Part shown: piece by piece, positions 29,841 through 30,321 of the stretch
How the letters are laid out: each line of letters starts with the position of its first letter
Numbering within the stretch: the stretch's first letter is position 1
Source of the DNA: a virus
Strand: one strand, 5' to 3'
Length of the DNA: 34,582 nt
Virus genome (UHGV): UHGV-0129090
Notes under the pieces: generated by a model
The model's input: only the letters and a program-made list of their open reading frames with translations
Told to the model about the DNA's origin: nothing
Databases searched by the model: none
Program-made: the position numbers and the translations under genes

Positions 29841-29880
29841 TTTTTCTTTTTCCTTATTGATAGTTAATTATTCGGTACTG

Positions 29881-30030
29881 TCGCCGCCCGTTCCACTCCG
29901 TCGCCGCGTCCAACTCACAAAATATATGAGGAAGCACTTTGATAGTAGTAATGAGAACTACACCTACTGGATCGAGCAAAGCGAAGGGAGAACGCTTGCG
30001 GGATTCCGTAGCGATAGCGAGGAAAACGCA
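29881..30030. other. GC-rich non-coding island with short direct repeats (possible structured RNA or protein-binding site)
   Basis: TCGCCGCCCGTTCCACTCCGTCGCCGCGTCC carries GTCGCCGC twice, 20 bp apart. There is a bulged hairpin GCAAAGCG-AAGGGAGAA-CGCTTGC near 29976-30000 and a tandem TAGCGA TAGCGA at about 30009-30020. The composition stands out from the surrounding AT-rich DNA. Confidence 0.3.
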
Positions 30031-30152
30031 ATGTTAGGTGTAATAATTAAATAATTTCAAAGACTCGCTCTGTCGAGGCTTTCTAATTACTTAACTATTT
30101 CTTCCTGTTCTATTAAGACATACTAAAATGAAAAATTATATTATATTAAGGG

Positions 30153-30317
30153 GGGCTAATGCACCAATCGCCCATAAAATTTCAAATCCATTTCAGAAAA
30201 GCCTGTAATATCAAGGGTTTGCGGCCTATTTTGCGTGTGGGTTAATCCCATTAGCCCATACAAATCAATCCCAATAGCCCATAATTAGCATATATGTATG
30301 GGCTAATAGGGGCTAAT
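30153..30317. repeat. Iteron-like array of (A/T)TAGCCCAT-type sites in both orientations
   Basis: Forward sites are AATCGCCCAT (30166-30175), ATTAGCCCAT (30250-30259) and AATAGCCCAT (30273-30282). Inverted sites are GGGCTAAT (30153-30160), GTGGGTTAAT (30235-30244, degenerate), ATGGGCTAAT (30298-30307) and GGGGCTAAT (30309-30317). AT-rich DNA lies at 30100-30150. Confidence 0.6.
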
Positions 30318-30321
30318 GGTA

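What the first reader, a model, noticed from the sequence alone, without database searches (positions are those of the whole stretch)
29841..30321. 480-bp non-coding gap holds an iteron-like array of TAGCCCAT sites, an AT-rich tract and a GC-rich island
Seen in sequence: at least six or seven copies of (A/T)TAGCCCAT, or its complement ATGGGCTA(A/T), lie in 30153-30317. They are arranged as two forward sites (30250, 30273) facing two inverted sites (30298, 30309), plus a convergent pair at 30153/30166. A very AT-rich stretch (about 30100-30150) lies next to them. A ~150-bp GC-rich island (29881-30030) sits beside that, with GTCGCCGC x2, TAGCGA x2 and a bulged hairpin. Established knowledge: iterons plus an AT-rich segment are the usual anatomy of phage and plasmid origins. 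Clustered inverted sites are also typical of repressor or partition-site arrays. Inference: this is a candidate origin or master regulatory locus of a phage in which I can find no replication gene. The adjacent 160-aa ORFan, whose stop is 4 nt from the last site, is the obvious candidate binder. The GC-rich island could be a structured RNA in the 5' leader of the 113-aa gene.
Basis: partly seen in the sequence, partly recalled or inferred. Interest (0 to 1): 0.65.

Follow-up and report, generated by a model that had tools for sequence, protein, structure and literature searches.

The report
Prophage control region with swappable binding sites
The gap is most likely the on/off control region of an unstudied E. 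coli prophage: its repeated sites change in step with the unknown 160-aa protein encoded just upstream, and there is little sign of a replication origin.

Summary
Six good sites and one degenerate TAGCCC-type site lie in 30150-30317. ATTAGCCC occurs 4 times there and nowhere else in 34.4 kb.

Relatives settle who binds. In 29 related prophage loci the site sequence tracks the clade of the ~160-aa protein encoded immediately upstream, with at least 8 site types. Two near-isogenic pairs differ only by a cassette holding that gene plus about 250-290 bp of sites. The neighbouring RHH and HNH-like genes do not co-vary with the sites.

One site always abuts a conserved AT box (TTAATATAATAT or TTATATTAATAT) that reads as a -10 element on either strand. 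In this clade a conserved IHF consensus lies between the distal palindromic array and the promoter-proximal pair.

The rest of the gap is a conserved element that is non-coding on both strands. It holds a hairpin kept in place by unrelated stems and an almost invariant TTGCGTTTTT. It has no Rfam match and is not tied to the 113-aa gene.

Best reading: operators for a new-fold regulator, probably an immunity-type repressor, over a possibly bidirectional promoter. The origin reading is not supported: sites have mixed orientation, there is no DnaA box, the binder shows no match to any solved structure (replication initiators included), and no plasmid carries the protein. It is also not excluded.

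The parts
30322..30804 (-). Gene for the 160-aa all-helical protein, the inferred site-specific binder. It is the left part of the swappable specificity cassette (window 30035-30805).
   Evidence: The family occurs only in Enterobacterales prophages, always as int - small TM protein - RHH - HNH-like - this gene - gap. Its clade tracks the site type. Cassette swaps. AF2 pLDDT 88. No Pfam or PHROG family and no PDB or fold match.
30250..30317 (.). Distal site array. On the gene strand: ATTAGCCCC, ATTAGCCCAT, ACATAT centre, then ATGCTAAT (degenerate), ATGGGCTAT and ATGGGCTAAT. That is two forward sites facing three inverted ones, starting 4 nt after the stop codon.
   Evidence: (inverted repeats I1, I2, I7). 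The positions relative to the AT box (-166>, -156>, -142<, -131<, -108<) are kept in 8 clade-A loci while the site sequence drifts.
30209..30221 (+). IHF consensus TATCAAGGGTTTG (WATCAANNNNTTR), between the distal array and the promoter-proximal sites.
   Evidence: Only 5 matches in 34.6 kb. It is present at the same relative position in 6 of 8 clade-A loci. Candidate only; binding was not tested.
30150..30175 (.). Promoter-proximal convergent pair. On the gene strand: ATGGGCGATT, 6 nt, then ATTAGCCCCCC. The forward site and its C-run abut the AT box.
   Evidence: D1, D4, I14. In all 26 distinct loci printed, a site of that locus's own type ends directly at the AT box.
30134..30149 (.). Conserved AT box (gene strand TTAATATAATATAATT). 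It reads as a -10 element on both strands: TTGGTG-16-TATAAT on the gene strand, AAGACA-16-TATATT on the + strand.
   Evidence: The box is kept across all protein clades. The + strand promoter-like hit at 30115-30144 comes from the scan. Scores are similar for both strands (7.8 and 8.3 of 12). No transcript data exist.
30042..30099 (.). Hairpin H1: a 15-bp outer stem (AATAGTTAAGTAATT / AATTATTTAATTATT) around an inner CTCG/CGAG stem. It lies 10 nt upstream of TTGCGT on the gene strand.
   Evidence: Window sense-strand folding z = -5.85, with 0 of 150 shuffles as good. A hairpin sits at the same place in relatives, built from at least 9 unrelated stem sequences. In 20 of 25 relatives the opposite strand folds better, so the folded strand is unresolved.
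29996..30031 (-). Near-invariant TTGCGTTTT(C/T) and its stem partner (H2: GCG..TTCC / GGAA..CGC). This is the right-hand boundary of the swappable cassette.
   Evidence: TTGCG is invariant in 25 aligned loci; the stem is mostly invariant, with 3 pairs showing compensatory change. Similarity to L030 resumes at window 30034. In L015 versus L029 it resumes at the same motif.
29841..29995 (-). It holds TTCGCTTTGCTCG (29969-29985), ACTACTATCAAAGT, and the GCGGCGAC direct repeats (29881-29908 on the + strand), then the ribosome-binding site of the 113-aa gene.
   Evidence: The blocks are conserved across clades. The element is non-coding in every frame. It is single-copy in the window. No Rfam match even at E <= 10.
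30847..30884 (+). Intrinsic terminator oriented against the genes: a 12-bp GC-rich stem followed by T6 on the + strand. It lies between the HNH-like gene and the 160-aa gene.
   Evidence: The same layout (A5-8, then a strong hairpin with compensatory stem changes, with no T-run on the gene strand) is present in all 12 loci examined across clades A, B and C. It implies a + strand transcript running antisense across the 160-aa gene.
29499..29840 (-). 113-aa ORFan, the first gene after the control region in this prophage. It is not part of the conserved module.
   Evidence: In relatives it is replaced by a 152-aa, an 80-97-aa or opposite-strand cargo genes.

Best explanation
The gap is the main transcriptional control region of a temperate prophage, and the TAGCCC-type sites are operators for the 160-aa protein encoded immediately upstream.

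Proposed mechanism: several copies of the protein bind the palindromic distal array (30250-30317) and the convergent pair next to the AT box (30150-30175). An IHF-induced bend at 30209-30221 brings the two sets together. The complex covers a -10-type core promoter at 30134-30149. This shuts off rightward (gene-strand) transcription into the conserved non-coding leader and the downstream phage genes, and/or a leftward antisense transcript that ends at the conserved terminator at 30847-30884.

The protein and its sites form a swappable specificity cassette, as immunity regions do.

Shown here: the sites are real and clustered, they co-vary with this protein and not with its neighbours, one site always abuts the conserved AT box, and the cassette boundaries are defined.

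Inferred: actual binding, that the box is an active promoter and in which direction, that the effect is repression, IHF use, and the immunity role.
For: 1. Clustering far exceeds chance.

2. First natural experiment. L030 and L031 carry the same yegD prophage (94-97% identical flanks). Window 30035-30805 is replaced there by a 158-aa homologue of about 22% identity, together with different sites (CATCTTTCCAAC / TGGAAAGATG).

3. Second natural experiment. L015 and L029 are 96% identical through the TM, RHH and HNH-like genes up to about codon 6. They share nothing across the 160-aa gene plus 252 nt, then are 94% identical again from TTGCGT. Their sites are GTGGTTAT versus CATCTTTCCGAC.

4. Across 29 loci, at least 8 site types follow the protein clades. 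Each locus's top 8-mer occurs 2-6 times in about 200 nt and 0-2 times in the 2.6-34 kb of flanking sequence held for it.

5. RHH type does not follow site type. L014, L018 and L030 share one RHH type but differ in sites.

6. A site of the local type ends directly at the conserved AT box in every locus. In clade C two sites bracket the box, which is repressive in either reading direction.

7. The architecture is held constant while the site sequence drifts.

8. An IHF consensus sits between the two site sets.

9. The many specificities in one narrow phage family resemble diversifying immunity groups. This step is inference from established knowledge of lambdoid immunity regions.
Against: - There is no binding or transcript evidence.
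- The putative promoter has only a weak, non-conserved -35 on the gene strand. That fits an activator-dependent promoter as well as a repressed one.
- The regulator gene is co-directional with the genes it would repress, and no terminator lies between them. This is unlike the divergent repressor layout of lambda, P2 or Mu.
- The cognate 8-mer is absent from the rest of the window, so no cognate sites lie upstream of the protein's own gene, and that upstream region is conserved between the two specificity types. The usual repressor autoregulation is therefore missing.
- The phage has no recognisable replication gene, so an origin must lie somewhere, and this region is not excluded.
Confidence: 0.6

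Rival explanations
1. The same binder and the same sites, but with the opposite sign. The 160-aa protein would be a positive regulator: a late or middle activator like Mu Mor/C, or a Q-like antiterminator loaded at the promoter. It would switch on the AT-box promoter, which then drives the leader, the cargo genes and the terminase/portal genes.
For: - The regulator gene lies directly upstream of, and co-oriented with, the promoter, as lambda Q does with PR' and Mu mor with Pm (established knowledge).
- The -35 is poor and not conserved, while the -10 is kept.
- The site occupies the spacer/-35 zone.
- There are no cognate sites upstream of the protein's own gene.
- Variable cargo genes sit just downstream, as morons do after lambdoid PR' (established knowledge).
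- An RHH gene with its own palindrome (31518-31546) over a promoter-like TTTAGC-16-TATATT in front of the HNH-like/160-aa genes could be the true repressor.
Against: - There is no gene-strand terminator in the leader for an antiterminator to act on.
- Five to seven sites, including a large palindromic array, are more than a Q-type or class II activator needs.
- In clade C a site lies at about +10 to +20 of the gene-strand reading, which is a repressive position.
- Eight or more specificities point to immunity-like diversifying selection (inference).
Confidence: 0.17
2. The gap is a replication origin. The 160-aa protein would be the initiator, the sites its iterons, and the AT box the unwinding element. 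Transcription of the conserved leader would activate or prime the origin, which would explain why the phage has no recognisable replication gene.
For: - No replication gene is recognisable in the 8-kb early region or in relatives.
- Initiator/iteron pairs also co-vary as cassettes, as lambda O does with ori (established knowledge).
- An AT-rich box lies next to the sites, and an IHF site lies between site groups as in some plasmid origins.
- Some site spacings are about 21-23 bp (L040).
- The conserved non-coding leader has hairpins.
Against: - The sites are inverted and palindromic, not phased direct repeats.
- The AT box is conserved in sequence and reads as TATAAT or TATATT, rather than being merely AT-rich.
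- There is no DnaA box in the gap; the whole window has one match against 4.25 expected.
- The binder has no significant match to any solved structure, replication initiators included.
- No member of the protein family is found in 72,556 plasmids or 50,697 phage records.
- Clade C has only 4 sites, arranged as two long-spaced inverted pairs, one of which brackets the box.
Confidence: 0.1
3. The gap is a packaging (cos/pac) or partition site. The sites plus IHF would be read by a packaging-specificity or centromere-binding protein.
For: Repeated sites with an IHF site between them resemble lambda cosB, which has R sites and the I1 IHF site (established knowledge). The phage has a lambda-type GpA terminase.
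Against: - The gap lies 6.4 kb from the small-terminase gene (22859-23455).
- The expected cos position, 23456-23743, has its own IHF consensus at 23662-23674.
- The binder is not the small terminase.
- There is no ParA/ParB-like partner gene, and no plasmid encodes the binder family.
Confidence: 0.03

Closest known systems
Lambdoid immunity regions (cI/cro with OR and OL; the imm434, imm21 and immP22 cassettes)
   Same: A sequence-specific regulator and its multiple operators travel together as a swappable cassette between otherwise near-identical prophages. Operators overlap the core promoter. A distal and a proximal operator set could cooperate by looping. There are many specificities within one phage group.
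   Different: - The regulator gene is co-directional with, and upstream of, the genes it would control, rather than divergent.
- There are no sites at its own promoter.
- The protein has no CI/Cro helix-turn-helix homology and no known fold.
- A conserved terminator for antisense transcription flanks the gene.
- A roughly 300-nt conserved non-coding element follows.
Phage Mu early operator region (repressor c, O1-O3, with an IHF site between O1 and O2)
   Same: Several short asymmetric sites are grouped into sets, with an IHF site between the sets. The complex controls promoters that face both ways.
   Different: There is no homology to Mu c or Ner. The gene order differs. IHF use here rests only on a consensus match.
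Lambda Q - qut/PR' - 6S RNA late control module
   Same: The regulator gene is directly upstream of, and co-oriented with, its target promoter. The binding site lies between the -35 and -10 positions. A non-coding leader follows. Variable accessory genes come next, then lambda-type terminase and portal genes. The regulator and its site are swapped as cassettes among relatives.
Lambda ori / O protein, and iteron plasmids (R6K, pSC101)
   Same: A binder and its repeats co-vary. An AT-rich segment is adjacent. An IHF site lies among the repeats.
   Different: Site orientation is mixed and palindromic. There is no DnaA box. The region lies outside the binder's gene. The AT segment is a conserved -10-like sequence. 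The binder family is never found on plasmids.
Lambda PaQ/anti-Q RNA, P22 sar, and the convergent-promoter switches of P2 and 186
   Same: The conserved antisense-oriented terminator implies an RNA that runs antisense to a key regulator gene, as in these systems.
   Different: The antisense promoter here is only predicted (AAGACA-16-TATATT). No RNA has been observed, and there is no sequence similarity to these systems.

Membership tests
Iteron-type replication origin (lambda ori, theta plasmids) | Three or more direct repeats in one orientation with regular, roughly 22-bp phasing | tested here: not met
   The sites run two forward then three inverted, plus a convergent pair. Start-to-start spacings are 10, 14, 11 and 23 bp.
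Iteron-type replication origin (lambda ori, theta plasmids) | Adjacent AT-rich unwinding element | tested here: inconclusive
   An AT-rich tract is present (GC 0.25-0.30). However, its core is a sequence-conserved TATAAT/TATATT-containing box abutted by a site in every relative.
Iteron-type replication origin (lambda ori, theta plasmids) | DnaA boxes, or a Rep/O-type initiator encoded beside the repeats | tested here: not met
   No TTWTNCACA in the gap. The binder has no Pfam or PHROG replication family and no significant match to any solved structure, replication initiators included.
Iteron-type replication origin (lambda ori, theta plasmids) | Supports replication of linked DNA | not testable with these tools
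   This needs cloning or marker-frequency sequencing. Indirectly, no member of the protein family occurs in 72,556 plasmids.
Phage immunity (repressor-operator) region | Sites and the adjacent DNA-binding protein co-vary among related phages as a cassette | tested here: met
   Window versus L030, and L015 versus L029, differ only by the gene plus about 250-290 bp of sites. At least 8 site types follow the protein clades in 29 loci. The RHH protein does not co-vary.
Phage immunity (repressor-operator) region | Operators overlap a core promoter | tested here: inconclusive
   A site abuts a conserved -10-like box in all 26 loci. In clade C sites bracket the box. The promoter is only predicted, at 7.8-8.3 of 12 consensus matches on either strand.
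Phage immunity (repressor-operator) region | Repressor of a known DNA-binding family (CI/Cro HTH, RHH, Mu c and others), with the usual divergent gene layout | tested here: not met
   No family or fold match. The gene is co-directional with the controlled genes.
Phage immunity (repressor-operator) region | Confers superinfection immunity and maintains lysogeny | not testable with these tools
   This needs genetics.
Lambda Q-type antitermination module | Regulator homologous to a Q family | tested here: not met
Lambda Q-type antitermination module | Short leader ending in an intrinsic terminator that the regulator overrides | tested here: not met
   There is no gene-strand terminator in 29500-31000. 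The H1 and H2 hairpins are not followed by T-runs.
Any Rfam RNA family (for the conserved leader / GC-rich island) | Covariance-model match | tested here: not met
   No match at gathering threshold over the whole window. No match at E <= 10 over 29700-30400. No tRNA or tmRNA.
Lambda-type cos site (cosN/cosB with IHF) | Lies immediately upstream of the small-terminase gene | tested here: not met
   The small-terminase gene is at 22859-23455, 6.4 kb away. The intergenic stretch next to it has its own IHF consensus.

The most novel reading that the evidence does not exclude
These roughly 33-kb tailed prophages may carry no replication protein at all. The conserved, promoter-fed, 300-nt non-coding element in the gap would then be a transcription-primed (ColE1 RNA II-like) or transcription-activated origin. 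The same 160-aa protein and site array would gate lytic transcription and phage DNA replication at once. A conserved antisense transcript across the regulator gene would make the switch bistable.
Probability: 0.07. Interest if true: 0.85.

Novelty: new variant of a known kind. Interest (0 to 1): 0.6.

Why it matters
The locus points to the master switch of a prophage family in Escherichia, Enterobacter, Klebsiella, Kluyvera, Citrobacter, Pantoea and Cedecea. The family has no cultured relative, and its whole early region is unannotated.

The switch protein is a new family with a confidently predicted fold that matches nothing solved. Nature has already provided at least eight cognate protein/site pairs, a ready-made set for working out a new DNA-recognition code and for building orthogonal regulators.

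The layout is unusual for a phage switch. The regulator gene is co-directional with its targets, a conserved terminator faces the wrong way, and a conserved non-coding element sits downstream of the promoter box. It could therefore reveal a different way of wiring the lysis/lysogeny decision. The region just downstream is also a hot spot for accessory and candidate defence genes.

Tried and rejected
- Known RNAs. tRNA/tmRNA scan: none. Rfam at gathering threshold and at E <= 10: none.

- A hidden gene in the gap. The 74-aa + strand ORF and all other frames are not conserved.

- Cultured relatives. blastn of the region and tblastn of the protein against 50,697 phage records found none. The terminase is at best 37% identical to any record.

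- The genome-contig scan gave only one locus.

- Whole-leader RNA structure. Window z-scores were not significant. RNAalifold on MAFFT alignments recovered only the mostly invariant H2 stem, with weak covariation.

- Strand assignment from folding asymmetry gave conflicting answers. The window favours the gene strand; 20 of 25 relatives favour the opposite strand.

- Promoter direction at the AT box could not be settled by consensus scoring.

- The TAGCCCAC copies at 24858/24874 and 25399 are arms of ordinary hairpins or terminators, not further operators.

- A second copy of the leader motifs elsewhere in the window: none.

- boxA/nut, RfaH ops and sigma-54 readings were considered by eye. 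They were dropped because the core consensus positions do not match.

- A literature search for a yegD prophage found nothing relevant.

Full report
**Setting.** The window is an E. coli prophage of about 33 kb. All of its genes lie on the - strand. A large serine recombinase (32206-33804) has integrated it into yegD, and the flanks are yegI, pphC, mdtA and mdtB. The gap 29841-30321 lies between a 160-aa ORF (30322-30804) and a 113-aa ORF (29499-29840). Of the 20 proteins scanned in the region from the integrase to the terminase, only the integrase, an RHH protein, an HNH-like protein and the two terminase subunits match any Pfam or PHROG family. No cultured phage is related. Only 1 of 5,426 complete E. 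coli genomes carries the gap, and RefSeq annotates nothing in it.

- 30153-30160 (inverted)
- 30166-30175
- 30250-30259
- 30273-30282
- 30283-30293 (degenerate)
- 30297-30307 (inverted)
- 30309-30317 (inverted)

The bare 8-mer with one mismatch is not enriched window-wide, but the clustering is. T[AC]GCCC occurs 6 times in 190 bp, against a maximum of 4 (mean 1.8) in 300 dinucleotide shuffles. All four TTAGCCC in the window are here. ATTAGCCC occurs 4 times in the gap and never in the other 34.4 kb. The AT-rich tract is real, and the 'GC-rich island' is modest.

**Who binds?** Exact-match look-ups, protein searches and a DNA pattern scan gave 29 informative related loci. Every locus with enough upstream sequence has the order int - small membrane protein - RHH - HNH-like - ~160-aa gene - 450-650-bp gap. 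What follows the gap varies.

Read on the gene strand, the gap always starts with a site array a few bases after the stop codon. The site sequence differs between loci:
- GGGCTAAT-like: window, Kluyvera, Enterobacter
- GTGGTTAT
- GGGGTAAT
- ATAACCGTA: Klebsiella, Pantoea
- CATCTTTCCAAC
- GTGCCCGTTTT
- TGCCGTAT
- CTTCGCAAGATGG
- GAATTAGTAC
- AACGAGAACC

Each locus's top 8-mer occurs 2-6 times in the roughly 200-nt array and 0-2 times in the 2.6-34 kb of flanking sequence held for it. Site type follows the clade of the ~160-aa protein.

Two natural experiments isolate the binder:
- L030 and L031 are the same yegD prophage as the window. Identity is 96% from window 30034 downward and 94-97% from 30806 upward. 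Window 30035-30805 is replaced by a 158-aa homologue of about 22% identity, together with CATCTTTCCAAC sites.
- L015 and L029 are 96% identical through the RHH and HNH-like genes to about codon 6 of the 160-aa gene. They are unrelated across that gene plus 252 nt, then 94% identical again from TTGCGT. Their sites differ.

The RHH protein does not track the sites. L014, L018 and L030 share an RHH type but have different sites. Binding itself has not been shown.

**Anatomy of the control region.** In the window's clade the site positions are fixed relative to a conserved AT box, while the site sequences drift: -166>, -156>, -142<, -131<, -108<, then an IHF consensus at -72, then -24< and -9>.

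The IHF consensus (30209-30221) is one of only five in the window. It is kept in 6 of 8 clade-A loci.

In every locus of every clade, a site of the local type ends directly at the box, TTAATATAATAT or TTATATTAATAT. The box contains a good -10 hexamer on both strands. The gene-strand -35 is weak and not conserved. The + strand reading (AAGACA-16-TATATT, 30115-30144) is the one the promoter scan reports. Consensus scoring does not separate the two directions (7.8 versus 8.3 of 12).

In clade C two sites bracket the box. They fall on the spacer and on about +10 to +20 in one reading, or on -35 and +1 in the other. Both arrangements are repressive.

A strong hairpin preceded by A5-8, with no T-run after it, lies just upstream of the 160-aa gene in all 12 loci examined. 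Its stems differ by compensatory changes. This is an intrinsic terminator for the opposite strand. It implies a conserved transcript running antisense across the regulator gene.

**The rest of the gap.** From the box onward the sequence is conserved across clades whatever gene follows, including opposite-strand cargo genes. It is not coding on either strand.

Its landmarks are:
- A hairpin (H1, window 30042-30099) found at the same place with at least 9 unrelated stem sequences. In the window its sense-strand folding z is -5.85. In 20 of 25 relatives the opposite strand folds better, with mean z -3.41 against -1.67.
- A nearly invariant TTGCGTTTTT whose stem partner is mostly invariant, with 3 pairs showing compensatory change.
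- TCGCTTTGCTC-type and ACTATCAAAGT-type blocks.

TTGCGT is also the right-hand recombination boundary of the specificity cassette. Whole-leader folding in the window is unremarkable, and Rfam has nothing. I can say that this is a conserved non-coding element with at least one structurally conserved hairpin. I cannot say which strand acts or what the element does.

**Interpretation.** The best-supported reading is a genetic-switch region. Operators for the adjacent new-family protein are grouped into a distal palindromic array and a promoter-proximal set, with a probable IHF bend between them. They cover a -10-type promoter that may fire in both directions.

I favour repression and an immunity-like role for three reasons:
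- The sites sit on or immediately beside the -10 box.
- In clade C they bracket it.
- The family has diversified into many specificities carried on swappable cassettes.

Four things count against this. The gene is co-directional with its targets. It has no sites at its own promoter. The gene-strand -35 is poor. There is a separate RHH-plus-palindrome cassette upstream (31518-31546). Together these keep alive a model in which the 160-aa protein is an activator or Q-like factor and the RHH protein is the repressor.

**The origin reading.** It fails most tests that could be run here. Site orientation is mixed. There is no DnaA box. The binder matches no solved structure, replication initiators included. 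The AT segment is sequence-conserved and promoter-like. No plasmid encodes the binder family. It is not excluded, because the phage has no recognisable replication gene and the leader's function is unknown.

A cos or partition reading is unlikely. The terminase genes are 6.4 kb away, and the intergenic stretch next to the small-terminase gene has its own IHF consensus.

**Verdict.** The 'origin' half is not. This is a new variant of a known kind of system, a phage switch region, built on an uncharacterised protein family with several atypical features.

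Noticed in passing
window 30847-30884 (+ strand): A strong intrinsic terminator (12-bp stem plus T6) points against all the genes, between the HNH-like gene and the 160-aa gene. 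The same layout (A-run, then hairpin, with no T-run on the gene strand) is present in all 12 relatives examined, with compensatory stem changes. It implies a conserved antisense transcript across the 160-aa gene.
   Followed up: partly
window 31892-31759 (- strand): A strong promoter-like site (TTGAGA-18-TATAAT, 31892-31863) is followed about 100 nt later by an intrinsic terminator (CCCCGA ttcg TCGGGG plus T-run, 31781-31759), just before the RHH gene. The pattern is conserved in relatives as TTGGGA-N17/18-TATAAT, then GATAAATAA, then TCTCCTCCAAGA, then a terminator. It could be a small RNA with an anti-Shine-Dalgarno stretch, or an attenuator.
   Followed up: partly
window 31507-31758, palindrome at 31518-31546 (- strand): The RHH gene and the palindrome after it (ATGTACTTT-N11-AAAGTACAT) form a second cassette that is swapped independently between the window and L030. 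The palindrome overlaps a promoter-like TTTAGC-16-TATATT in front of the HNH-like gene. Most relatives examined have a comparable inverted repeat after their RHH gene.
   Followed up: partly
window 23456-23743, IHF consensus at 23662-23674 (- strand): The 288-bp intergenic stretch just upstream of the small-terminase gene holds one of only five IHF consensus matches in the window. It is the likely cos region of this lambda-type (GpA terminase) phage.
   Followed up: no
window 24858-24881 and 25399-25418 (- strand): TAGCCCAC / GTGGGCTA copies that resemble the operator core are the arms of ordinary hairpins between early genes. The second is followed by TTTTT and is an intrinsic terminator inside the gene-strand operon. 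Later genes therefore need read-through or further promoters.
   Followed up: partly
window 1-676 and 33768-34582; loci L001-L010: The prophage splits the host chaperone gene yegD; RefSeq calls the remnant a pseudogene. Relatives use other integration sites: next to a PHP-domain gene, next to msyB, and after a PBP/AraC-family pair. Their serine integrases differ.
   Followed up: no
loci L016, L018-L021, L023, L025, L027, just downstream of the conserved leader: The position right after the control region is a hot spot for variable, often opposite-strand cargo genes (DUF2971, PLDc_2, DUF3800, EAL-domain proteins). It may be a moron or anti-phage defence island.
   Followed up: no
window 23744-29840: None of the early-region ORFs scanned (about 13; some small called genes were not scanned) matches a Pfam or PHROG family at a meaningful level. 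No replication, recombination, antitermination or CI/Cro-type gene is recognisable in this region or in its relatives.
   Followed up: partly
loci L015, L032, L037, L040, first gene after the leader: A recurring 80-97-aa protein (..GGRSDGLYN.PK..L.D.P....YI..Y......HLN..F.IRAT) follows the leader in four clades. It has only a weak LexA-type winged-helix hint (E = 0.054). The window carries an unrelated 113-aa ORFan at this position.
   Followed up: partly
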